Part shown: positions 4,254 through 64,000 of the stretch, in pieces
Layout: each line of letters opens with the position of its first letter
Position numbering within the stretch: position 1 is the stretch's first letter
Source of the DNA: Escherichia phage vB-Eco-KMB42
Strand: one strand, 5' to 3'
Sequence record: OR539221.1
Length of the DNA: 64,000 nt
The notes under the pieces: generated by a model
Seen by the model: the letters and a program-made list of their open reading frames with translations, nothing else
What the model was told of the DNA's origin: nothing
Database searches by the model: none
Program-made: the position numbers and the translations under genes

Positions 4254-5672
4254 TTATGGATAGGTATAGATGATACCAGTTTCTAAAGCAGTTTTATGAA
4301 TGATGTATCCATTGCGCGATTCTTGGACATCAACTTCTGGATAGTCTTTCATCATCTTCTGAAGCGTATAACGATGCAAGTAGTACTTACTATCTGGGTC
4401 GTCAGTTTTCCAATCTTTACCTTCTTCAGTCATTTTTTGGATTTCATCCATAACCCACCAACCGCACCAGATATAAGCTGAAGTACGGTGCGGAAGAGGA
4501 TGAACATAAGGCAATTCACCTTCTGGTTCTGGAGCAACTTTATCAGTCACTTGAACTTGACCTGTTGTTTTAACTGTTTTGCTATCATAATCAGTTGCTG
4601 TAACGACAGCAGTAACTTCAATAGTTTGACTTCCAACAGATGAGGTATCGACAGTATATACGTTAGTTGACCCTTCTACAGGAGAAGAATCTTTCTTCCA
4701 CGAGTAAGTAATTTGTGCTTCTTCTGGAGCATCCGTAACATTAGCCGTAAATGTAGCTGAAGCATCTTGCTGAACGTTAATAGAAGGAGGAGTCAATGTA
4801 ACCTGTGGATTCATTGTCTTCTTATTAACTGTCAATGACACTTCATTAGAAGTAACTTCCTTTTCATTGTAATTTTCTGCTGTTACTTGGGCTACGCATT
4901 TAATTCTTTTTACTCCACTTGTAGTTGGAGTATAGCTAAATGTAGAGTTAGTTTCTCCACCAACTTGTGAATCATCTACATACCACTGATACGTAGCAGA
5001 TGCTCCATCAGGTTGAGAAGCTAAGGCAGCAGTAAATTGAACTGGGGTTCCAATTACTCCAGCTGAAGGACTATCGGGAGTTACTGCCAAAGTAGTTGTC
5101 TGTGTCTTTTTATTAACAGTCAGTGACACTTCATTAGAAGTAACTTCTTTTGCATCATAATCTGTCGCGGTTACTTGAGCTACACACTTAATTGTTTTAA
5201 CTCCACTTGTGTCAGGAGTGTAATTGAATGTAGCGCTAGTCGCTTCGCTCACAGGAGAACTGTCAACGTACCATTGATACGTAGCAGATGCGCCTGATGG
5301 CTGCGAAGCCAAAGCAGCGGTAAATTTAACAGCTGTTCCAATCACTCCAGCCGCAGGACTAGCAGGAGTTACGGCTAAGGTAGTCGTCTGTGTCTTATTT
5401 TTAACTGTGATAGTTGTTGTCGCTTCAGCCGTTTCCGGGCCTCCTTCAGAAAGTGTATTTGTTGCAACTACTTTAATAGTCTTTTGACCAGCAGGACCTT
5501 TTAATACATAATCAAAAGTTGCTTCAGACCCATCTTGTGGAGCATTATCTACACTCCAAGCATAAGTAATAGTTCCACCTCCAGTTTCACCACTGGGTGC
5601 AGCAGTAAACTGCTTGGTTTCATCAATAACTCCTGACGGTGTTTTAGGAGTTATATCAACTGTAAAAGCCAT
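4254..5672 (-). CDS. hoc: Hoc outer capsid decoration protein, 472 aa with tandemly duplicated Ig-like domain
   Basis: N-terminus MAFTVDITPKTP and C-terminal capsid-binding region match T4 Hoc; internal 96-aa repeat. Confidence 0.9.
   Translation of the reverse strand: MAFTVDITPKTPSGVIDETKQFTAAPSGETGGGTITYAWSVDNAPQDGSEATFDYVLKGPAGQKTIKVVATNTLSEGGPETAEATTTITVKNKTQTTTLAVTPASPAAGVIGTAVKFTAALASQPSGASATYQWYVDSSPVSEATSATFNYTPDTSGVKTIKCVAQVTATDYDAKEVTSNEVSLTVNKKTQTTTLAVTPDSPSAGVIGTPVQFTAALASQPDGASATYQWYVDDSQVGGETNSTFSYTPTTSGVKRIKCVAQVTAENYNEKEVTSNEVSLTVNKKTMNPQVTLTPPSINVQQDASATFTANVTDAPEEAQITYSWKKDSSPVEGSTNVYTVDTSSVGSQTIEVTAVVTATDYDSKTVKTTGQVQVTDKVAPEPEGELPYVHPLPHRTSAYIWCGWWVMDEIQKMTEEGKDWKTDDPDSKYYLHRYTLQKMMKDYPEVDVQESRNGYIIHKTALETGIIYTYP
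4821..5396 (-). repeat. tandem 288-bp duplication inside hoc encoding two ~80% identical 96-aa Ig-like domains
   Basis: protein segments KTQTTTLAVTP...EVSLTVNK repeated twice. Confidence 0.85.
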
Positions 5673-6412: not shown

Positions 6413-7924
6413 ATGACTGACATTAAAGTACATTTTTATGATTTTAGTCACGTGAGAATTGATTGTGAAGAAAGTACATTTCATGAACTCCGTGATTTCT
6501 TTAGCTTTGAAGCTGATGGGTATCGTTTTAATCCGAAATACAAATATGGCAACTGGGATGGACGAATCCGTCTTTTAGATTATAATCGTCTTCTTCCATT
6601 CGGCTTAGTCGGGCAAATTAAAAAGTTCTGTGATAACTTTGGCTATAAAGCCTGGATTGACCCACAAATTAACGAAAAAGAAGAATTATCAAGAAAAGAT
6701 TTTGATGAATGGCTTTCTAAATTAGAAATCTATTCAGGAAATAAAAGAATTGAACCACACTGGTATCAAAAAGATGCAGTGTTCGAAGGATTAGTTAATC
6801 GTCGTAGAATTCTTAATCTTCCAACTTCGGCTGGTAAATCTTTAATTCAAGCTTTGCTTGCGCGATATTATTTGGAAAATTATGAAGGTAAAATTCTTAT
6901 CATTGTTCCAACAACTGCTCTGACAACTCAGATGGCTGATGACTTTGTTGATTATCGTTTATTCAGTCACGCAATGATAAAGAAAATTGGTGGCGGAGCA
7001 TCAAAAGATGATAAATATAAAAATGATGCACCAGTCGTTGTTGGTACATGGCAAACTGTAGTAAAACAACCAAAAGAATGGTTCTCACAGTTTGGAATGA
7101 TGATGAATGATGAATGCCATCTTGCTACAGGAAAAAGTATTTCATCTATCATATCAGGTTTAAATAACTGCATGTTCAAATTTGGTCTATCTGGTTCATT
7201 ACGTGATGGCAAAGCCAATATCATGCAGTATGTTGGAATGTTTGGTGAAATATTTAAGCCAGTAACGACTTCTAAATTAATGGAAGATGGGCAAGTAACT
7301 GAGCTAAAAATTAATAGTATTTTTCTTCGCTATCCCGATGAGTTCACTACTAAATTAAAGGGAAAAACTTATCAAGAAGAAATAAAAATTATTACGGGGC
7401 TTAGTAAAAGAAATAAATGGATCGCTAAATTAGCTATTAAGCTTGCGCAAAAAGATGAAAACGCTTTTGTCATGTTTAAACATGTATCGCACGGTAAAGC
7501 TATTTTCGATTTAATTAAAAATGAATACGATAAAGTTTATTACGTATCAGGGGAAGTTGATACCGAAACACGCAATATAATGAAAACCTTAGCTGAAAAT
7601 GGTAAAGGAATAATTATAGTAGCTAGTTATGGTGTATTTTCTACTGGTATTTCAGTTAAAAATCTGCATCACGTTGTTTTAGCGCACGGTGTTAAATCAA
7701 AAATCATTGTATTACAAACAATCGGTCGTGTATTACGTAAGCATGGTTCTAAGACAATAGCAACAGTCTGGGACCTCATAGATGATTGTGGTGTTAAGCC
7801 AAAATCTGCTAATACGAAAAAGAAATATGTTCATTTGAACTATCTTTTAAAACACGGCATTGATCGTATTCAGCGCTACGCAGATGAAAAATTCAATTAC
7901 GTAATGAAAACAGTTAATTTATAA
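6413..7924 (+). CDS. uvsW: UvsW DNA/RNA helicase (503 aa)
   Basis: helicase motifs (Walker A PTSAGKS, DECH box), late promoter TATAAATA 6376-6383. Confidence 0.92.
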   Translation: MTDIKVHFYDFSHVRIDCEESTFHELRDFFSFEADGYRFNPKYKYGNWDGRIRLLDYNRLLPFGLVGQIKKFCDNFGYKAWIDPQINEKEELSRKDFDEWLSKLEIYSGNKRIEPHWYQKDAVFEGLVNRRRILNLPTSAGKSLIQALLARYYLENYEGKILIIVPTTALTTQMADDFVDYRLFSHAMIKKIGGGASKDDKYKNDAPVVVGTWQTVVKQPKEWFSQFGMMMNDECHLATGKSISSIISGLNNCMFKFGLSGSLRDGKANIMQYVGMFGEIFKPVTTSKLMEDGQVTELKINSIFLRYPDEFTTKLKGKTYQEEIKIITGLSKRNKWIAKLAIKLAQKDENAFVMFKHVSHGKAIFDLIKNEYDKVYYVSGEVDTETRNIMKTLAENGKGIIIVASYGVFSTGISVKNLHHVVLAHGVKSKIIVLQTIGRVLRKHGSKTIATVWDLIDDCGVKPKSANTKKKYVHLNYLLKHGIDRIQRYADEKFNYVMKTVNL

Positions 7925-16771: not shown

Positions 16772-16789
16772 TTTGTGTTCCTCATGTTA

Positions 16790-16850
16790 TGTCAGTAAAA
16801 CTACTATAACACAATACGAGGGACTTGTAAACTACATTTTGAACTTTTTA
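16790..16850 (-). promoter_or_regulatory. early sigma70-type promoter (-35 GTTTAC, -10 TATAGT)
   Basis: minus-strand GTTTAC at 16827-16832, 18-bp spacer; nearly identical to promoter at 32140-32200. Confidence 0.6.
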
Positions 16851-21042: not shown

Positions 21043-21228
21043 TTAATAGAGAGCTAAAAGAGTACGATATACTTCAAACTTTGGACCTTTTTCATATGGA
21101 TCAAATCTTTCCGTGAATTCATCATATGCTAGTTTATCTGGGAATTCAAGAATAACCTGCGATACCGCAGTGGAAACATCTCCACCTTCTTTTTGAGCCA
21201 CGACAATTGTTTCTAAGTAAGCTTTCAT
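21043..21228 (-). CDS. hypothetical protein (T4 alt.1 position, 61 aa)
   Basis: ORF, stop overlaps ligase start region. Confidence 0.55.
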   Translation of the reverse strand: MKAYLETIVVAQKEGGDVSTAVSQVILEFPDKLAYDEFTERFDPYEKGPKFEVYRTLLALY

Positions 21229-22688
21229 AAACCAGTTACCTCATGAAAATCGCCAAATACATCTTCGAACGTATTAGCTTTAGTTTTATCTTCACGTAAA
21301 CGAATTGCAATTGGAAGAAATAGCTTAACGTAATCAGTACGTCCATCTAATTTTACCCAGCCGTTGCATTCGCACTCTAGAATTTTTCCAATATAATAAT
21401 TTTGGTTTTCCATAATGCGAGTACGATCAAGTTCATGCGATTTTATACCGGCTTTATCTTTTAAGCCTGAACCAGCATTTACTTTAATTTTTCCACACTC
21501 TGATTCAAGAATGAAACCACCTGCTTTAGTAGGGTCTTTACGGTGAGGATAAATTCCTACAATTTTTAAATCAACATCAATTACTTCTTTAAATTTATAA
21601 AGATTTTTTGAACGAGCATTTTCCCATAATCCATCGATATTTTTAAGAATAATACCTTCAAGACCTTGGTCAATATACTTTTTATAAATTACCTTAGCTT
21701 CATCTAGGTTATTTACTATCTGGTTTTCAATTAAAATTACTTTATCATAGCCTGATGTCATTTGTTCTAGTTTAGAAAAACGTACATCATATTTTAAACG
21801 AAATGCTGGAAGACCATATATTTCTACTAATGGAACATAGTCCCAGACCTGAAACTTCATGCATTGTGCTTCTTTTTCAGAAATGGTTCCCTTTAAAGAT
21901 TTATTAGCGATTCCATTAGAAGTAGTACGTGATTCAGCTACTTCGGCGAATTCTTTAGCTTTACTAATTTCAGGATAAGCATCAAAAAGAAAATCTAGGC
22001 CTTCTGGCTCCTTTTTAACCTGCTCATGGTATACCAATTCGCCATCAATTAACACACCTTCTGGATGAATCTGGCGAGCTTCTGCAGTCATTTTGATTAA
22101 CTCTTCCTTGAGAAGATCTAATCCTAGATATTCATTACCAGCTCGTGATAAAAGACGAACATCATCTAATTCATCACCTCTGACTTCAGCAAAGCACCGA
22201 GCTCCATCAGCTTTTAACTGGGCAAAAGCTGGAAATTTAATATTCTTATTAATGCCTTTTTCATCATAAGAACTTGCCAGCATTTGAGGTTGTTCAGGAA
22301 TTAAACCTGGCCAAACTTTATTTGCAATAGATACAGAAGCACCACATTCAAGGTCTCGCATCATTACTCGACGTAATACTTCAACATCATCTTTTTTACC
22401 ATCGGTGATATATCCGATTAATTCCTCAATTGCCGCATTTCCAGTCAATTTCCGAGTAGCTAACGTGAATTCAATGAAGTCAAGCATATCGGTAAGAGTC
22501 AACATTCCAAAACTCTGGGTAGTAATACCCGGTTTAGGCCATTTCTTGATATAATACTGTAACCCACGAGAATAAGTCAGACGATATACTCGTTTAAGCA
22601 ATTCATTATCTTTATTCTTTTCAAGAATTGCTTGCTTCTGCTTAGTTGAACCAATAGATGCTATTTCGTTCAGAATTTTAAGAATCAT
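21225..22688 (-). CDS. 30: ATP-dependent DNA ligase gp30 (487 aa)
   Basis: N-terminus MILKILNEIASIGSTKQKQAILEK matches T4 DNA ligase; length 487. Confidence 0.95.
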   Translation of the reverse strand: MILKILNEIASIGSTKQKQAILEKNKDNELLKRVYRLTYSRGLQYYIKKWPKPGITTQSFGMLTLTDMLDFIEFTLATRKLTGNAAIEELIGYITDGKKDDVEVLRRVMMRDLECGASVSIANKVWPGLIPEQPQMLASSYDEKGINKNIKFPAFAQLKADGARCFAEVRGDELDDVRLLSRAGNEYLGLDLLKEELIKMTAEARQIHPEGVLIDGELVYHEQVKKEPEGLDFLFDAYPEISKAKEFAEVAESRTTSNGIANKSLKGTISEKEAQCMKFQVWDYVPLVEIYGLPAFRLKYDVRFSKLEQMTSGYDKVILIENQIVNNLDEAKVIYKKYIDQGLEGIILKNIDGLWENARSKNLYKFKEVIDVDLKIVGIYPHRKDPTKAGGFILESECGKIKVNAGSGLKDKAGIKSHELDRTRIMENQNYYIGKILECECNGWVKLDGRTDYVKLFLPIAIRLREDKTKANTFEDVFGDFHEVTGL

Positions 22689-22954
22689 TGTTCATCCTTT
22701 AGAGTTTGGTTTACAGCTCTATTATAAATCAATTCATCATTAAGCTCAGTCAAAGACCTGTGGTACGTGGTTCTAACTTTATTTCCTTGCATCCAGTGCT
22801 TGACGTAAATGAAACCTTGCTCTACACATTTTTTAAAAATTCGTTCGTCTTTTTGAGCTCGGAATTCTGGATTGCATCTAAAAAATTGATTTACGTGACC
22901 GTAATCACGTGTAGTATTACCTTCATTTTCATAAATAGTGTGAACGACAAACAT
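22685..22954 (-). CDS. hypothetical protein (T4 30.1 position)
   Basis: ORF in synteny. Confidence 0.6.
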   Translation of the reverse strand: MFVVHTIYENEGNTTRDYGHVNQFFRCNPEFRAQKDERIFKKCVEQGFIYVKHWMQGNKVRTTYHRSLTELNDELIYNRAVNQTLKDEQ

Positions 22955-23184
22955 TAGAATGCTCCTTGGAAAATATTATCACCACTAGTAGGTCTATTAT
23001 ACAAATACTCTATGCCACCGGGTTTAATATAGTTCCATGTCTGAAACGGATGCGTCTGATATGGATGATATAGATTATAAGGATTAAATCCAGGAGTTCT
23101 CCGGATGCGTCTGATATGGATGATATAGATTATAAGGATTAAATCCAGGAGTTCTCCAGGTAGTGTTCCAAGGAAAAGAATCAT
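22954..23184 (-). pseudogene. 3' fragment of the disrupted 30.2-like gene (shares RTPGFNPYNLYHPYQTHP with upstream ORF)
   Basis: duplicated peptide encoded by both copies of the 55-bp repeat in different register. Confidence 0.55.
23047..23156. repeat. perfect tandem direct duplication, 2 x 55 bp
   Basis: CGGATGCGTCTGATATGGATGATATAGATTATAAGGATTAAATCCAGGAGTTCTC at 23047-23101 and 23102-23156. Confidence 0.95.
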
Positions 23185-23845
23185 TTTTAATCATCTTTTC
23201 AATTACATCTTTTATAGCTTTTTCACTATCAAAACTTTCTTTATTTTCATTCGATGGAAAAAGCTTATTCTCTACATCATTCCATGTATAAACTCGCTGT
23301 GCAGTTTTTGGAATACTGTCACGCTCCCCTCGAGCCATCCAATAAACAGGAACATTTAATATTTCACTCGCATGATCGCAGTGGTGAGCGAGATCGTCAA
23401 TATAACAAATTACGTTATATTTCTCTTTTGCCTTTTTGAACAACTCTTCTTTTGAAGAATCATGACCACACATCAATACTTCTGAGAAGGCACCAGGAAA
23501 AAGAGCATTCAAATTAAATTGACGATTCAGCAGAGCGTCAATAGAATCACCCAGTGCTGTAACAGCTACAAAATTATAATCTTCTTTTAATTTGTTAATT
23601 ACACACAGGGCATCTTTATATGGAGACAAATAGCGAATAAAATCTGAACGATTATACTTTTCGATTAATTTAACACCAAGTTCTTCATCGCAATTAAAGA
23701 GCTTACCAGGAGAAATAAATTTTTCGTCCTGAATCATTTTTAAAATATGTTCCAACGGAAGATTATATTTTTGGGCAAAATAAGGAAGGCCCGATTGCCA
23801 GCTTAAACACACCCCGTCAATATCAGTCAAAATAGTAGGCTTCAT
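23084..23845 (-). CDS. HAD-superfamily hydrolase-like protein (T4 30.2 position), C-terminus truncated by frameshift caused by 55-bp tandem duplication
   Basis: HAD motif I ILTDIDGV and motif IV CYIDD; reading frame continues into ORF 22954-23184 if one repeat copy is removed. Confidence 0.7.
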   Translation of the reverse strand: MKPTILTDIDGVCLSWQSGLPYFAQKYNLPLEHILKMIQDEKFISPGKLFNCDEELGVKLIEKYNRSDFIRYLSPYKDALCVINKLKEDYNFVAVTALGDSIDALLNRQFNLNALFPGAFSEVLMCGHDSSKEELFKKAKEKYNVICYIDDLAHHCDHASEILNVPVYWMARGERDSIPKTAQRVYTWNDVENKLFPSNENKESFDSEKAIKDVIEKMIKNDSFPWNTTWRTPGFNPYNLYHPYQTHPENSWI

Positions 23846-24306
23846 AGAGAGTCTCTTAATAGGTTTAACACATCAATAAATTCAGCTTCGGTTAGTATTG
23901 TATCATCTTTTGTTAGACCACTAGCCATGCTATGCTTCAAAATTTTTCCTTTAGAGGCTTGTAAGGCATCACGAAACCCCTTGTTTTGAATCGCTGCTTC
24001 AAAATATGCATTTGTATACAACTCTTTCCATGCTACAGAGTATCTTGAAAAGGGAATTCCAAGCCAGAAAAGCGTCCCACGGTCCGCAGCTCTTGCATAA
24101 GCTCTTCCACTTTGCTGGGCGGCCAAGCCGGAGAGCCCAAATATACGTTTTTGTTGTTCAACATTTTTCACCTTGCATCCTTGGAGGAATCCTTCAAGAC
24201 CTCCGAATTGAATACCATCCATGACGAAAGGCCATTGGGCGAAATTACTTAATGCACACGATGGCCATCTAAAATTGCTTCTAATCTCTAACTCAGACAT
24301 TTTCAA
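23842..24306 (-). CDS. NADAR/YbiA-like (DUF1768-type) protein (T4 30.3 position, 154 aa)
   Basis: motif LSNFAQWPFVMDG...E..LQ.CK resembles YbiA FSNFAAWP...DG...EH..Q; from memory, unverified. Confidence 0.6.
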   Translation of the reverse strand: MKMSELEIRSNFRWPSCALSNFAQWPFVMDGIQFGGLEGFLQGCKVKNVEQQKRIFGLSGLAAQQSGRAYARAADRGTLFWLGIPFSRYSVAWKELYTNAYFEAAIQNKGFRDALQASKGKILKHSMASGLTKDDTILTEAEFIDVLNLLRDSL

Positions 24307-24995: not shown

Positions 24996-25014
24996 AAGGG
25001 GCCGAAGCCCCTCA
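24996..25014 (-). terminator. hairpin between 30.7- and 30.6-position genes
   Basis: minus-strand GGGGC-TTCG-GCCCC directly upstream of SD. Confidence 0.5.
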
Positions 25015-25021
25015 TTTTATT

Positions 25022-25387
25022 TTAAATATCAAATTCGTTAAGAACTACATCAAAGATTGCTTCAAGATGCTCAGGTTTAGCTCTGTTACTCAGAATATGA
25101 CGAATCCAAGTTTTAACCAAAAGCTTGCGATTATCACCATTCCAGCAAGGATGAGTCCCTAAATCGCGTTGACGAAAATCATCATCTAAAGCGATTTTAA
25201 AATTTGAACCTTCCATTGTGATTGAAACCGTGATGCCATTTTCAAATCGCATATAAACGTAGTTAGGAGTCATATACTGTTCAATTTCGCATACTGATCC
25301 ATTTTGATGTTTCCAAAGGCAAATAGTATCAATAGAACCTGCAATACCATTAGAAACATATTTACGTTCAAAGTTGATGTAGTTCAT
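25022..25387 (-). CDS. hypothetical protein (30.7 position, 121 aa)
   Basis: ORF with SD; early promoter 25405-25465. Confidence 0.6.
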   Translation of the reverse strand: MNYINFERKYVSNGIAGSIDTICLWKHQNGSVCEIEQYMTPNYVYMRFENGITVSITMEGSNFKIALDDDFRQRDLGTHPCWNGDNRKLLVKTWIRHILSNRAKPEHLEAIFDVVLNEFDI

Positions 25388-32129: not shown

Positions 32130-32139
32130 AAAGTCCTCA

Positions 32140-33778
<1,639 letters not shown>

Positions 33779-37857: not shown

Positions 37858-38718
37858 TTATACCGCCATTTTTCCTTTAATTGGCGGGTGAGATACATAG
37901 TTTTTAAGAACAAAATCATGTGGCTTTGCAAATTGACTCAACCAAAATACCTGCGATTCTGTGTCCCATTCATCAAATTCATCTGGAAATTTTAATTGTA
38001 ATTCGCATAAATCCATAGGTTCACGGCGTAAAATTTCTTTACATTGTTCTACGTGATTCATATAGATATGAGTATTACCACCAGAAAATATCAAATCTCC
38101 AGGAATAAGATTACACATTTTAGCTACAATATGAACTAACGTAGCATATGATGCAATATTAAATGGAAGACCGAGGAAAACATCTACCGAACGTTGATAC
38201 CACTGCAAATCCAAATAGCAATTACGCACATTAAACTGATAGAACATATGACAAGGAGGTAATGCCATATATTTAAGTTCAGCTGGATTCCATGCAGAAA
38301 CAATTTGACGCCTATCATTTGGCAGTTTTTTAATACGATCAACAACTTCTATAATTTGGTCTACACCGCCAAAATCACGCCACTGTTTTCCATAAATTGG
38401 ACCAAGTTCACCGCTATGGTATCCTAAATCTTTTGCCTGATTTTCGTAATTTTCATCCCAAACTGTTTTGCCTTGGATTAACGAATCGTGTTGAATTAAT
38501 CGTAAATCATTGACATTTGTGCTTCCTGATAAAAACCATATTAGCTCAGCAATGCATGCATTCCAGGCGAGCTTTTTAGTTGTTACTGCAGGAAAACCTT
38601 TAGTTAAATCCCAGCGTAATTTAGTACCGAACAAAGCAATTGTTCCTGTGCCTGTTCGATCATCGGTTTCATAGCCATTTTCAAAAATGTCTTTAATTAA
38701 ATCTTGGTATTGTTTCAT
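37858..38718 (-). CDS. td: thymidylate synthase, uninterrupted (no group I intron)
   Basis: continuous 286-codon ORF; ThyA active-site region ALPPCH. Confidence 0.95.
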   Translation of the reverse strand: MKQYQDLIKDIFENGYETDDRTGTGTIALFGTKLRWDLTKGFPAVTTKKLAWNACIAELIWFLSGSTNVNDLRLIQHDSLIQGKTVWDENYENQAKDLGYHSGELGPIYGKQWRDFGGVDQIIEVVDRIKKLPNDRRQIVSAWNPAELKYMALPPCHMFYQFNVRNCYLDLQWYQRSVDVFLGLPFNIASYATLVHIVAKMCNLIPGDLIFSGGNTHIYMNHVEQCKEILRREPMDLCELQLKFPDEFDEWDTESQVFWLSQFAKPHDFVLKNYVSHPPIKGKMAV

Positions 38719-40323: not shown

Positions 40324-40566
40324 TCAGACAGACTTTTTCACAATTTTCCAATCAGCTTTAAACTGATCAACATCAGAATGATAAATCCAGAATCCTGCGC
40401 TTTCTCCGTCTTCATAAAGAGGACATCCATCACATTCATCTTCCCATCCCATATCACGTAAAAGATGTTCAGCTTTTTCAACGAGTTCAGAATCTTTACC
40501 GATGATATTAAAATACCATTTACCTCTAACTTCCGAATCTTTAATGCTCTGGCGTTGTAATCTCAT
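40324..40566 (-). CDS. hypothetical protein (frd.3 position)
   Basis: ORF with SD GAGGAG and early promoter 40575-40640. Confidence 0.6.
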   Translation of the reverse strand: MRLQRQSIKDSEVRGKWYFNIIGKDSELVEKAEHLLRDMGWEDECDGCPLYEDGESAGFWIYHSDVDQFKADWKIVKKSV

Positions 40567-40574
40567 TTTATTCT

Positions 40575-40640
40575 CCTCAGTAGTTGATAGGGTAATAGTA
40601 TCACACTACTACCCTGTTGTAAACAATTATTTTTGAATTT
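40575..40640 (-). promoter_or_regulatory. early promoter upstream of frd.3-position gene
   Basis: minus-strand GTTTAC (40619-40624), -10 TACTAT. Confidence 0.55.
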
Positions 40641-40887
40641 TATCGAGCCACTTACCAAGCTTAATCATTTCTTTAGTAGCCTTTTCCATACTTCTGAACT
40701 TAACTAATAGAGGATAGGTATCGACACCCATAACTAAATTGGTTGCAAGACTGTGTTCACCCACAAGCCATAACGAATACGTTTGAATATCGAGTCCGTA
40801 ATTTCTGTCTTTATGGACCCGTACACCCATCACTTCAAATTTCTCACTAGCTTTTTCTACCGCATCCAGGAAATCATCTTTAGTCAT
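40627..40887 (-). CDS. hypothetical protein (variable region between frd.3 and gene 32)
   Basis: ORF; start placed at ATG 1 nt after upstream stop. Confidence 0.5.
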   Translation of the reverse strand: MTKDDFLDAVEKASEKFEVMGVRVHKDRNYGLDIQTYSLWLVGEHSLATNLVMGVDTYPLLVKFRSMEKATKEMIKLGKWLDKIQK

Positions 40888-41569: not shown

Positions 41570-41650
41570 ATCAGCAGTATTGCCGATAGTTGTATAGTAC
41601 CATGGAAGGACAAGGATGTAAACAGTTTTGTGAAAAAATTTTTGAAATAA
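41570..41650 (-). promoter_or_regulatory. early promoter with A/T-rich UP element, between gene 32 terminator and variable-region ORF
   Basis: minus-strand AAAAATTTTTTCACAAAAC UP element, GTTTAC (41617-41622), -10 TACTATACA. Confidence 0.6.
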
Positions 41651-41675
41651 AAAAGGGGACCTCTAGGGTCCCCAA
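41640..41675 (-). terminator. rho-independent terminator after gene 32
   Basis: minus-strand GGGGACCC-TAGA-GGTCCCC followed by TTTTTTATTTC. Confidence 0.8.
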
Positions 41676-41695
41676 TTAATTAGTAATATAATCTA

Positions 41696-58261: not shown

Positions 58262-58345
58262 TTCTGTATCAGTAGTTGATAGTTGTATAGTACCACAGTA
58301 TGCTTTGGTTGTAAACCGTTTTGTGAAAAAATTTTTGAAATAAAA
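58262..58345 (-). promoter_or_regulatory. early promoter for motA with UP element
   Basis: same UP element as 41570-41650, GTTTAC (58311-58316), -10 TACTATACA. Confidence 0.65.
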
Positions 58346-58370
58346 AAGGGAGAGCCGAGGCTCTCCCTAA
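58336..58370 (-). terminator. rho-independent terminator between motA.1 and motA promoter
   Basis: minus-strand GGGAGAGCC-TC-GGCTCTCCC followed by TTTTTTATTTC. Confidence 0.8.
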
Positions 58371-58372
58371 AA

Positions 58373-58522
58373 TTACTGCATGAATGTGATAACTATCATG
58401 ATAACACGTTGAATTCCGAACGCAAGAAGACCTCCTGCTACGGCTGGAACAACGCCTAAACCCGCCAGTAAAATGCTACCAGATACTAATGCAGCGCTTG
58501 TAATACCTATGAATGGACTCAT
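58373..58522 (-). CDS. small hydrophobic membrane protein (49 aa; motA.1 position), not in ORF track
   Basis: manual translation MSPFIGITSAALVSGSILLAGLGVVPAVAGGLLAFGIQRVIMIVITFMQ; ATGA overlap with gene 52. Confidence 0.45.
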   Translation of the reverse strand: MSPFIGITSAALVSGSILLAGLGVVPAVAGGLLAFGIQRVIMIVITFMQ

Positions 58523-61282: not shown

Positions 61283-61396
61283 TCACATAAATCCAAAGTA
61301 AACGTTTAATACATCAATCATTAAAACGATTGGGAATATACTCAAAACTATTAGTATTATAACTACATTCCATATAGCTTTAACAATCTTTTTCAT
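61283..61396 (-). CDS. tiny hydrophobic protein (37 aa) downstream of early promoter
   Basis: start MKKIVKAIWNVV with SD GGAGGAACAG; ORF-track N-terminal extension covers the promoter. Confidence 0.45.
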   Translation of the reverse strand: MKKIVKAIWNVVIILIVLSIFPIVLMIDVLNVYFGFM

Positions 61397-61399
61397 TTT

Positions 61400-61470
61400 C
61401 TGTTCCTCCGTAGTTGATAGGGTAATAGTACCACGGAAGAACAGTCTTGTAAACAACTTTTTAAAAATAT
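61400..61470 (-). promoter_or_regulatory. early promoter inside ndd-denB small-ORF cluster
   Basis: minus-strand GTTTAC (61449-61454), -10 TACTAT. Confidence 0.5.
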
Positions 61471-61559
61471 TCGTAATAAATGTGAATACCAATCACCACT
61501 GCTGAAACCTGTGCAACCCACCACGCACAAGCAATAAGTACAGAATTCAAAATTTTCAT
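61461..61559 (-). CDS. tiny hydrophobic protein (32 aa), not in ORF track
   Basis: manual translation MKILNSVLIACAWWVAQVSAVVIGIHIYYEYF; SD GAGG. Confidence 0.35.
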   Translation of the reverse strand: MKILNSVLIACAWWVAQVSAVVIGIHIYYEYF

Positions 61560-61642: not shown

Positions 61643-61902
61643 AGCTCAATCTCAGCGATTTTCATTTCATTACTATTAATAGCCGCTTTAAGACTATCTG
61701 AAAGAATTACATTCCAGTGGTCATTCATATGACCATTAACTAAGCGTGTAATTTCTTCGGGAGTTGAAAAATAAGGCGTATCAGACTCCCAATGCGATAA
61801 TCCTAAGCGAGTATAAATCATACCTTCATCATCGCTAGAATATTCAACTGACACAAACTCATCAGTTATTTTATGTTTAGCGTAATAAAATTTAAATTTC
61901 AT
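61639..61902 (-). CDS. hypothetical protein (88 aa; ndd.6 position; start at MKFKFYYAKHK)
   Basis: SD GGAGGAGCGG; downstream of early promoter 61905-61985. Confidence 0.55.
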   Translation of the reverse strand: MKFKFYYAKHKITDEFVSVEYSSDDEGMIYTRLGLSHWESDTPYFSTPEEITRLVNGHMNDHWNVILSDSLKAAINSNEMKIAEIEL

Positions 61903-61904
61903 TT

Positions 61905-61985
61905 TCCGCTCCTCCGTAGTTGATAGTTGTATATTACCACGGTCCTTGTGGTATGTAAACCGTTTTGTGAAAATTTTTAAATGGA
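61905..61985 (-). promoter_or_regulatory. early promoter downstream of denB, upstream of ndd.6-position gene
   Basis: minus-strand GTTTAC (61955-61960), -10 TAATAT. Confidence 0.5.
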
Positions 61986-62813: not shown

Positions 62814-62843
62814 AAGGGCCGAAGCCCTTATTTAAATTGTTCA
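62814..62843. repeat. 30-bp perfect direct repeat copy 1 (gene 3' end plus hairpin)
   Basis: AAGGGCCGAAGCCCTTATTTAAATTGTTCA identical to 63037-63066. Confidence 0.9.
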
Positions 62844-63036: not shown

Positions 63037-63066
63037 AAGGGCCGAAGCCCTTATTTAAATTGTTCA
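63037..63066. repeat. 30-bp perfect direct repeat copy 2 (rIIB 3' end plus hairpin)
   Basis: identical to 62814-62843. Confidence 0.9.
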
Positions 63067-63989
63067 GTAACGTCTTCAATTACTTCGTATTGGCAGGTAC
63101 GCATTTTAGCGTCGTTGTAATCAATCGGAATTGATACTACATCACGAGGATGAACTTTAACTTTTACAACTCGGCTGGTTGAACCACCGAAGTGACGAAT
63201 ATAAGATTTAGAACACACATGCAGACCACGAGAACAAGTTTGTGTATCATCGTCATTCACACGAGTACGCGGCATTTTAACTACTTTACCAGGACTGTTA
63301 TCAAAGGTATTTGAGTGACAGTCAAAGTAATTGTTGCGAACTACTTTCCAAGCATAGAAGTAACCATCTTCTGTAATTTCAATATCGTTTGCTACCAAGA
63401 AATCAAAAAGTCGAGATACCGCTTTCTGGCTTGGGTTTTCCAGCAGATTTTCCAAGAACGGAAAATAAAATTCAAAGTTTTCGCCTTTTTCCATCGAATC
63501 AAGAATACGATCAACCAAACCAGACCGCAATTCAATATTTTGATAGAATAAGCTTCCACCTTCAATTCGAACATCGCCGGAAATATATTTTTCAACAGCG
63601 CGACGAACATTAATTTTTTGTGCCGCTTCTTCCAGCTTATCCGCTACAAGCAGATTGAGAATTTCCTGGAAGTTTGAATGAGTATTAGGTGTTGCATTAT
63701 AAGTTACACCATCGACAGTAATCGAAATGAATTTTTTAGAAGCATTCCAAATAATATCAGATTTAGCAACTGGAGCAATAACTGCATCGCTATTAACTTT
63801 AACTGTAATATCACCGCTAATAGTAACTTTAGAGCGTTTAGCTTCTTCAGCATTTTTCAAAACACGACGGATTGTATCAACCGATACACCTTGCCAATCA
63901 GCCAATTCCTGCTGAGTATAATTACCGCTTGAATACAGTTTAACAATTTCAGCTTGTTCGTTTTTGGTCAGGCATTTAATATTGTACAT
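63051..63989 (-). CDS. rIIB: rIIB membrane-associated protein (312 aa)
   Basis: N-terminus MYNIKCLTKNEQAEIVKLYSSGNYTQQELADWQGVS; length equals T4 rIIB. Confidence 0.92.
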   Translation of the reverse strand: MYNIKCLTKNEQAEIVKLYSSGNYTQQELADWQGVSVDTIRRVLKNAEEAKRSKVTISGDITVKVNSDAVIAPVAKSDIIWNASKKFISITVDGVTYNATPNTHSNFQEILNLLVADKLEEAAQKINVRRAVEKYISGDVRIEGGSLFYQNIELRSGLVDRILDSMEKGENFEFYFPFLENLLENPSQKAVSRLFDFLVANDIEITEDGYFYAWKVVRNNYFDCHSNTFDNSPGKVVKMPRTRVNDDDTQTCSRGLHVCSKSYIRHFGGSTSRVVKVKVHPRDVVSIPIDYNDAKMRTCQYEVIEDVTEQFK

Positions 63990-64000
63990 AATTTTCCTTA

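What the first reader, a model, noticed from the sequence alone, without database searches (positions are those of the whole stretch)
23047..23156. Perfect 55-bp tandem duplication splits a HAD-like gene (30.2 position) into two ORFs
Two identical 55-bp copies lie head to tail. Because 55 is not a multiple of 3, the HAD-like ORF (23084-23845) shifts frame and stops after 5 codons. The ORF at 22954-23184 re-encodes the same peptide RTPGFNPYNLYHPYQTHP from the other copy and then continues. Removing one copy restores a single ORF of about 278 codons, and the count of nine 30.x genes between ligase and rIII then matches T4. This is either a very recent duplication that inactivated the gene, a reversible copy-number switch, or an assembly/sequencing artefact.
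Basis: seen in the sequence. Interest (0 to 1): 0.55.

Follow-up and report, generated by a model that had tools for sequence, protein, structure and literature searches.

The report
Assembly-join artefact splitting phage gene 30.2
The perfect 55-base tandem duplication that splits a T4-like phage gene is really in the sequence, but it is most likely an untrimmed assembler overlap (55 is a standard SPAdes k-mer) left inside the genome when the circular contig was rotated, so it is ordinary rather than biology.

Summary
Bases 23047-23101 and 23102-23156 are identical, adjacent 55-nt copies inside the minus-strand orthologue of T4 gene 30.2. The copies split it into a 253-aa ORF and a 76-aa ORF. 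Deleting one copy gives an 837-nt (278-aa) gene identical in its C-terminal 292 nt to phage BECP11.

The most likely cause is an assembly artefact (about 0.85).
- The copy length is 55, the k at which short-read SPAdes contigs overlap.
- The copies are perfect and share only 1 nt of junction microhomology.
- The junction is absent from 50,697 phage genomes and three large contig collections. About 500 relatives are single-copy where checked.
- The window ends on the same base as the RB14 GenBank record (the rIIA/rIIB origin). The record was therefore rotated after assembly, which moves contig ends into the interior.
- Two of ten sampled relatives still carry exact end overlaps of 99 and 127 nt.

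A real, recent duplication cannot be excluded without reads (about 0.12). Even then, the HAD-fold catalytic core (residues 1 to about 190) would stay intact and only a poorly conserved, low-confidence tail would be lost. Interest is low.

The parts
23047..23101 (.). Copy 1 of the perfect 55-nt tandem duplication
   Evidence: identical to copy 2.
23102..23156 (.). Copy 2 of the duplication. The junction 23101|23102 is the only sequence unique to the two-copy state. C at 23157 is the single base of junction microhomology.
   Evidence: Junction absent from phage records, viral contigs, metagenome contigs and genome contigs.
23084..23845 (-). Upstream 253-aa ORF: the N-terminal 248 residues of the gene 30.2 orthologue (complete HAD-fold core plus part of the tail), then 5 frameshifted codons (ENSWI) and a stop
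   Evidence: phrog_420. HAD motifs. HAD fold.
22954..23184 (-). Downstream 76-aa ORF. Its N-terminus reads copy 2 out of frame. From copy 1 onward it is the native C-terminal 48 residues of 30.2 (RTPGFNPYNLYHPYQTHPFQTW...GIEYLYNRPTSGDNIFQGAF).
22954..23845 (-). Whole 30.2 locus: 892 nt as recorded, 837 nt (278 aa) with one copy removed
   Evidence: Same length as RB14 30.2 and the BECP11 orthologue. The 292-nt tail is identical to BECP11.
22685..22954 (-). Gene 30.1 orthologue (DUF3045). Its start overlaps the 30.2 stop by 1 nt.
23842..24306 (-). Gene 30.3 orthologue (PF08010), overlapping the 30.2 start
21225..22688 (-). DNA ligase (gp30), the anchor for synteny
63990..64000 (.). The last 11 nt of the window, following the rIIB start codon (rIIB is 63051-63989, minus strand). 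The window ends on the same base as GenBank RB14, at the rIIA/rIIB origin. This shows that the record was rotated after assembly.

Best explanation
The duplication is an assembly or finishing artefact, not a feature of the phage DNA.

T4-like genomes are circularly permuted, so a de Bruijn-graph assembler returns one contig that closes on itself. Its first k bases repeat at its end. With SPAdes or metaSPAdes on short reads, the largest k in use is 55. The submitter then rotated the sequence to the T4/RB convention (start at rIIA, end 11 nt past the rIIB start codon) by cutting and re-joining the contig, without trimming the overlap. The old contig ends happened to lie in gene 30.2, so they now sit head to tail as a perfect 55-bp tandem copy. 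Because 55 is not a multiple of 3, gene callers see two ORFs. Joining two contigs end to end without collapsing a 55-bp overlap would give the same result. The true genome most likely has one copy and an intact 278-aa HAD-fold 30.2 protein.

Shown directly: the repeat, its exact length, its uniqueness, the rotation of the record, and the existence of this artefact class in relatives and in the literature. Inferred: that this particular repeat arose in that way.
For: 1. The two copies are exactly 55 nt, adjacent and 100% identical, with only 1 nt of microhomology.
2. 55 is a member of the SPAdes k series ('-k 21,33,55,77,99,127', PMC8530038). SPAdes v3.15.5 contigs from a 150-cycle paired-end run were joined by '55 bp overlaps' (PMC12697093). 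A circularly permuted phage NODE contig carried 55-bp DTRs (PMC13220884). 127-bp DTRs were labelled 'assembly artefact removed' (PMC9331655). Internal ~79-bp repeats in short-read phage assemblies were shown to be artefacts by Sanger sequencing (PMC10438801).
3. The window's last 60 nt equal the last 60 nt of the RB14 record, ending on the same base, and the next base in ECP52 starts the rIIA stop codon. The record was therefore rotated, and the original contig ends must lie internally.
4. The duplication is unique. All 40 top relatives span 1746-1752 nt against 1801. No record matches across the junction at E<=1e-20. The junction is absent from three contig collections. Sixty records spread over 499 hits span 291-319 nt for a 347-nt query. 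Independent Logan and NCBI assemblies are single-copy.
5. Two of ten sampled GenBank relatives keep exact start-equals-end overlaps of 99 and 127 nt.
6. The surrounding sequence is clean: no gaps against ECP52 over 14.7 kb to the left, and only two 1-nt indels over 9.8 kb to the right.
7. It is the only perfect tandem repeat in 64 kb.
8. Removing one copy restores a gene whose 292-nt tail is identical to BECP11.
Against: No raw reads, assembly metadata or independent assembly of this phage could be found. Exact-protein look-ups for the two ORFs and for the two largest ORFs in the window's tail-fibre region returned nothing. The artefact is therefore inferred, not observed.

If the record had been built by mapping reads to an RB14-like reference, it would share the origin without any rotation, and a 55-bp insertion would then need read support.

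The same tail region shows natural in-frame repeat expansions in T6 and PST, so the locus is somewhat slippage-prone in nature. T4-type phages are also known, from my own knowledge, to produce spontaneous tandem duplications.
Confidence: 0.85

Rival explanations
1. A genuine, very recent 55-bp tandem duplication arose in the sequenced phage stock by replication slippage or illegitimate recombination. It frameshifts 30.2 after residue 248. The phage makes a 253-aa protein with an intact HAD core but without the native last 30 residues, and tolerates this because 30.2 is non-essential.
For: The sequence as recorded contains the duplication. The Pro/Tyr-rich tail shows natural in-frame expansions in T6 (+9 nt) and PST (duplicated YNPYYTHP), and length alleles of 291-319 nt occur across relatives. 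Many natural homologues lack the tail altogether, at about 200-220 aa. The tail is predicted with low confidence, so its loss may be tolerated.
Against: The length equals an assembler k value exactly. There is only 1 nt of microhomology, and the ends do not fall on the natural repeat motifs. There is zero divergence between copies. No other phage or contig carries it. The record was rotated, which gives a ready artefactual origin. All natural length variants seen here are in frame.
Confidence: 0.12
2. The duplication is a reversible copy-number (phase-variation-like) switch. Recombination between the two 55-bp copies toggles 30.2 between split and intact forms in the population.
For: Direct repeats of 55 bp could in principle recombine in a recombination-proficient T4-type phage (inference).
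Against: There is no conservation of a two-copy or multi-copy state in any of about 500 relatives. Only two copies are present. No associated regulatory element, RNA family or tRNA was found. It requires the duplication to be real in the first place.
Confidence: 0.02
3. The two ORFs are the intended products, as a natural two-gene arrangement or through programmed frameshifting or re-initiation.
For: An ATG at 23184 opens the 76-aa ORF inside the upstream ORF.
Against: Orthologues are single 278-280-aa genes in all annotated relatives inspected. Nothing was found in the protein collection identical to either ORF. The first 29 residues of the 76-aa ORF are out-of-frame translation of 30.2 coding sequence, mostly of copy 2.
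Confidence: 0.01

Closest known systems
Untrimmed de Bruijn-graph end overlaps ('artefactual DTRs') in SPAdes phage assemblies, such as the 127-bp DTRs removed in PMC9331655 and the 55-bp DTRs or overlaps in PMC13220884 and PMC12697093
   Same: An exact duplicate whose length equals an assembler k value, in a circular or circularly permuted phage genome, with no biological counterpart in relatives. Relatives BECP11 (99 nt) and PsgM02F (127 nt) show the same thing at their record ends.
   Different: Here the two copies are adjacent in the interior of the record rather than at its two ends. That is what is expected after rotation to the rIIA origin.
Internal ~79-bp repeat artefacts in short-read-only przondovirus assemblies, refuted by Sanger sequencing (PMC10438801)
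   Same: A short perfect repeat inside a finished phage genome, created by short-read assembly and able to cause a spurious frameshift.
   Different: A different phage group and repeat length. Those repeats lay near true terminal repeats, whereas T4-like phages have no fixed ends.
Spontaneous tandem duplications and frameshift mutations of phage T4 (classical rII and lysozyme genetics; from my own knowledge, not checked here)
   Same: A tandem duplication, not a multiple of 3, that frameshifts a non-essential T4-type gene.
   Different: Classical cases usually have end-point microhomology and were selected genetically. This one has 1 nt of microhomology and a length equal to an assembler parameter.
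Natural in-frame repeat-length alleles of the 30.2 tail (T6 extra HPY; PST duplicated YNPYYTHP)
   Same: The same gene region and a local duplication.
   Different: These are 9-27 nt long, in frame, diverged, motif-bounded and shared by lineages. The window's copy is 55 nt, out of frame, perfect and unique.

Membership tests
Assembler k-mer end-overlap artefact (untrimmed on circularisation or rotation) | The two copies are exactly identical and directly adjacent | tested here: met
   100% identity, no spacer.
Assembler k-mer end-overlap artefact (untrimmed on circularisation or rotation) | Copy length equals a k value used by a common assembler | tested here: met
   The copy is 55 nt. 55 is in the SPAdes k series, and 55-bp overlaps or DTRs are reported for SPAdes contigs. 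The assembler actually used for this record is unknown.
Assembler k-mer end-overlap artefact (untrimmed on circularisation or rotation) | The record was re-oriented after assembly, so the contig ends became internal | tested here: met
   The window ends on the identical base to the RB14 record, 11 nt past the rIIB ATG. The inference is that the window end is the record end.
Assembler k-mer end-overlap artefact (untrimmed on circularisation or rotation) | The duplication is absent from close relatives and from independent assemblies | tested here: met
Assembler k-mer end-overlap artefact (untrimmed on circularisation or rotation) | No sequencing read spans the copy-to-copy junction | not testable with these tools
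   The genome and its reads were not found in any collection.
Spontaneous slipped-strand or illegitimate-recombination tandem duplication | Short direct-repeat microhomology at the duplication end-points | tested here: inconclusive
   Only 1 nt (C at 23047, 23102 and 23157), which chance gives 1 time in 4.
Spontaneous slipped-strand or illegitimate-recombination tandem duplication | Physical presence in phage DNA, or heterogeneity in the stock | not testable with these tools
   This needs reads or PCR.
Phase-variable or contingency repeat locus | Copy number of the same unit varies among relatives or within populations | tested here: not met
   All relatives checked have one copy. Their length variation comes from other, in-frame motifs.
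T4 gene 30.2 orthologue | Position between 30.1 (DUF3045) and 30.3 (PF08010), downstream of ligase, on the same strand | tested here: met
T4 gene 30.2 orthologue | Sequence similarity and length | tested here: met
   The restored gene is 278 aa, the same as RB14 30.2 (837 nt). It matches phrog_420 at E=4e-93. T4 30.2 records match the locus (H136).
HAD (haloacid dehalogenase-like) hydrolase superfamily | Rossmann-like HAD fold | tested here: met
   AF2 model of the 97%-identical P0001: pLDDT above 90 for residues 1 to about 200. Foldseek top PDB hits are all HAD enzymes, including 5'(3')-deoxyribonucleotidases, with E about 1e-8 and probability 1.00.
HAD (haloacid dehalogenase-like) hydrolase superfamily | Catalytic motifs: DxD (I), S/T (II), K (III), DD (IV) | tested here: met
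   D8, D10 and K132 are invariant, and T96, D150 and D151 are at least 90% conserved, in 44 homologues. Assigning these residues to motifs is from my own knowledge of HAD enzymes.
HAD (haloacid dehalogenase-like) hydrolase superfamily | Match to a curated HAD sequence model | tested here: not met
   There is no Pfam hit above threshold. The PDB sequence search gives only E=1.4 to deoxyribonucleotidase 2jao. Membership therefore rests on fold and motifs.
HAD (haloacid dehalogenase-like) hydrolase superfamily | Phosphatase or nucleotidase activity | not testable with these tools
   No literature on 30.2 was found.

The most novel reading that the evidence does not exclude
The duplication is physically present in the phage. 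On this reading, a fresh 55-bp tandem duplication in a naturally slippage-prone Pro/Tyr-rich tail has just detached the conserved C-terminal GIEYLYNxPT motif from the HAD core of gp30.2. Homologous recombination between the copies can restore it, giving a mixed population. That would offer a natural separation-of-function allele of an uncharacterised, widely conserved T4-family HAD enzyme.
Probability: 0.1. Interest if true: 0.3.

Novelty: not a real feature. Interest (0 to 1): 0.08.

Why it matters
The main value is as quality control. The record is probably 55 bp too long, and it splits a conserved gene into two spurious ORFs that would propagate into protein databases and pan-genome counts.

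The case gives a simple recognisable signature: a perfect tandem copy whose length equals an assembler k value, inside a genome that has been rotated to a conventional origin. Such calls can be filtered automatically on that basis.

As a by-product, gp30.2 of T4-like phages is shown here to be a HAD-fold protein, closest in structure to 5'(3')-deoxyribonucleotidases, with a variable and probably disordered tail. If the duplication were real, it would be a minor, recent, probably tolerated mutation in a non-essential gene.

Tried and rejected
- **Finding the source genome or its reads.** Exact-protein look-ups for the 253-aa ORF, the 76-aa ORF and the two largest ORFs in the tail-fibre region (1289 and 1109 aa) found nothing. 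The ligase look-up found only non-identical relatives, at most 99.1% identical and all single-copy.
- **Junction searches.** Ordinary junction BLAST rows tied and could not discriminate. This was solved by a strict E-value cut-off, which gave no match.
- **Natural-mechanism signatures.** I looked for microhomology, hairpins, promoters or terminators, RNA families and tRNAs. There is only 1 nt of microhomology, no terminator, promoter-like hits at background level, and no Rfam or tRNA hit.
- **Literature on gene 30.2.** Nothing relevant was found.
- **Pfam and PDB sequence searches.** Neither gave a significant family for 30.2. The fold search was needed.
- **P0002 as a possible duplication carrier.** It was considered because it is 100% identical over 82% of the query. 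It was rejected because its divergent end, RSEEHTSELQSQ, looks like translated Illumina adapter (my own reading of the sequence).
- **A low-quality, error-rich assembly.** This was rejected because the flanks are essentially gap-free against ECP52.

Full report
**1. What is in the sequence**

The window is a Tequatrovirus (T4-like) genome segment. Its best match over 25 kb is Escherichia phage ECP52 at 98.8%, and its own record is not in the phage library.

Tandem Repeats Finder reports one array at 23047-23157 with period 55, 2.0 copies, 100% matches and no indels. A direct comparison confirms that 23047-23101 and 23102-23156 are identical. The period extends by a single extra base, C at 23157. 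It is the only perfect long-period tandem repeat in the 64 kb.

The repeat lies on the minus strand in the gene between the DNA ligase/30.1 genes and 30.3, which is the orthologue of T4 gene 30.2.
- The 253-aa ORF (23084-23845) ends ...RTPGFNPYNLYHPYQTHP, then five out-of-frame codons (ENSWI) and a stop.
- The 76-aa ORF (22954-23184) reads copy 2 out of frame, then re-encodes the same 18-residue peptide and continues to the native C-terminus.
- Removing one copy gives 837 nt / 278 aa. That is the length of RB14 30.2 and the BECP11 orthologue.
- The restored 292-nt tail is identical to BECP11.
- With a single 30.2 gene, nine genes (30.1 to 30.9) separate ligase from rIII, as in RB14.

**2. Is it found anywhere else?**

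No.
- Of 727 phage records matching the 1.8-kb region, 494 cover at least 80% of it. All 40 listed span 1746-1752 nt against the window's 1801, which is one copy.
- An 80-nt query centred on the junction, restricted to E<=1e-20 so that only a continuous match can pass, finds nothing in 50,697 phage records.
- The exact junction is absent from viral contigs, metagenome contigs and genome contigs.
- Sixty records sampled evenly across all 499 hits span 291-319 nt for a 347-nt query.
- Independent NCBI and Logan assemblies that carry the identical ligase protein are single-copy, and their alignments break exactly at 23102.

**3. Why an assembly artefact is the best explanation**

(a) The length is exactly 55.
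- 55 belongs to the SPAdes k series ('-k 21,33,55,77,99,127', PMC8530038).
- SPAdes v3.15.5 contigs from a 150-cycle paired-end run were joined through '55 bp overlaps' (PMC12697093).
- A circularly permuted phage 'NODE' contig carried 55-bp DTRs (PMC13220884).
- The same phenomenon at k=127 is explicitly labelled 'assembly artefact removed' (PMC9331655).
- Internal ~79-bp repeats in short-read phage assemblies were proved to be artefacts by Sanger sequencing (PMC10438801).

(b) The record was rotated.
- The window's last 60 nt are identical to the last 60 nt of GenBank RB14 and stop on the same base, 11 nt beyond the rIIB start codon.
- In ECP52 the next bases are the rIIA stop codon.
- A random window would end on that nucleotide about once in 1.7x10^5 (my own arithmetic).
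- The window is therefore the terminal 64 kb of a record re-oriented to the T4/RB origin. The original contig ends must now be joined somewhere inside the record.

(c) Untrimmed overlaps are common in this clade. I compared the first and last 300 nt of ten deposited relatives. BECP11 has an exact 99-nt start-equals-end overlap and PsgM02F a 127-nt one.

(d) There is no signature of a natural event. Microhomology is 1 nt, there is no hairpin or terminator, and promoter-like hits are at background level.

(e) The surrounding sequence is clean. There are no gaps against ECP52 over 14.7 kb to the left, and two 1-nt indels over 9.8 kb to the right. This is an isolated join anomaly, not general sequencing noise.

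Putting these together: a self-closing contig with a 55-nt end overlap was cut at rIIA and re-joined without trimming. Alternatively, two contigs were abutted without collapsing their 55-nt overlap.

**4. The rival: a real, recent duplication**

It cannot be excluded without reads. The tail of 30.2 is Pro/Tyr-rich and shows natural in-frame expansions: T6 has an extra HPY, and Yersinia phage PST has YNPYYTHP twice. Length alleles of 291-319 nt exist across relatives. Local slippage therefore does occur at this locus over evolutionary time.

Those events are 9-27 nt long, in frame, motif-bounded and lineage-wide. The window's copy is 55 nt, out of frame, perfect, unique and not bounded by the motifs.

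I put the probabilities at about 0.12 for a real duplication, about 0.02 for the reversible-switch variant, and about 0.01 for an intended two-ORF arrangement.

**5. The gene itself**

- The restored protein matches phrog_420, of unknown function, at E=4e-93. It has no Pfam family, and no literature on it was found.
- One hundred homologues were found in T4-like phages of many hosts.
- An alignment of 44 shows a conserved core (residues 1 to about 190), with D8, D10 and K132 invariant and T96 and D150-D151 nearly invariant. This is the HAD motif pattern.
- An AlphaFold2 model of the 97%-identical P0001 has pLDDT above 90 over residues 1 to about 200.
- Its best PDB matches are all HAD enzymes: haloacid dehalogenases, YfnB, and cytosolic and mitochondrial 5'(3')-deoxyribonucleotidases, with E about 1e-8 and probability 1.00.

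'HAD-like' is therefore supported by fold and motifs, although no curated sequence model is matched.

The tail (residues 228-279) is predicted with low confidence. Many homologues lack it entirely and are about 200-220 aa long. Long forms share a terminal GIEYLYNxPT motif. So even a real duplication would leave the catalytic core intact, and 'inactivation' is not established.

**6. Verdict**

- The best classification is 'not a real feature'.
- Interest is low.
- The decisive test is trivial: look for reads or a PCR product across the junction.

Noticed in passing
window 63940-64000: The window ends on exactly the same base as the GenBank RB14 record, 11 nt past the rIIB start codon, and the next base would be the rIIA stop. 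The window is therefore the 3'-terminal 64 kb of a record rotated to the T4/RB coordinate convention.
   Followed up: yes
L009/L010 (MW286157.1 ends) and L019/L020 (OR584013.1 ends): GenBank records of phage BECP11 and 'Pseudomonas phage' PsgM02F keep exact start-equals-end overlaps of 99 and 127 nt. These are probably untrimmed assembler k-mer overlaps, so the records would be too long by that amount.
   Followed up: partly
window 22990-23160; L032 (PST), L033 (T6): The Pro/Tyr-rich C-terminal tail of gp30.2 has natural in-frame length alleles. T6 has an extra HPY, and Yersinia phage PST has YNPYYTHP duplicated. Spans of 291-319 nt occur across relatives.
   Followed up: partly
window 37858-38718 (-): The thymidylate synthase (td) gene is an uninterrupted 286-aa ORF here. 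The closest relative, ECP52, has td split around an I-TevI homing-endonuclease gene, and about 1 kb of ECP52 is absent from the window. This is intron presence/absence polymorphism.
   Followed up: partly
window ~8442: About 98 nt present in ECP52 (L008 24394-24493) are missing from the window, downstream of the 503-aa helicase ORF 6413-7924. ECP52 annotates no gene across that stretch.
   Followed up: no
window 4815-5405 (within ORF 4254-5672, minus strand): There is an imperfect 288-nt x 2.1 tandem repeat (77-79% identity) inside the 472-aa ORF. The matching ECP52 gene is annotated as head decoration protein. The repeat probably encodes repeated protein domains.
   Followed up: no
protein P0002 (ENA contig, 220 aa): This 30.2 homologue is 100% identical to the window for 208 residues and then ends in RSEEHTSELQSQN. 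That ending looks like the in-frame translation of the Illumina TruSeq adapter, so the public contig appears to be adapter-contaminated.
   Followed up: partly
hits H9, H65, H66 (OR584013.1, PV654520.1): Two genomes labelled as Pseudomonas phages are 97.9-99.4% identical to this coliphage-type Tequatrovirus region. The host assignments look doubtful, or the genomes may be contaminants.
   Followed up: no
window 62814-62843 and 63037-63066: There is an exact 30-nt direct repeat containing a GC-rich hairpin (AAGGGCCGAAGCCCTT), with copies 223 nt apart at the 3' end of rIIB. A 70% similar copy lies at 24997-25026. These may be terminator-like elements.
   Followed up: no
window 40563-40641, 61393-61471, 61899-61977; 41585-41682 and 58278-58375; 16779-16832 and 32134-32187: Several families of dispersed 54-98-nt repeats (66-96% identity) share motifs such as GTAGTTGATAG...GTAAAC. 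Positions relative to genes were not checked. They may be recurring promoter or regulatory elements of T4-type phages.
   Followed up: no
L034 (OL964745.1, T4 clone T4_7t1): In this T4 deletion-mutant record, the CDS annotated at the 30.2 locus is only 453 nt (117055-117507) rather than about 837 nt.
   Followed up: no
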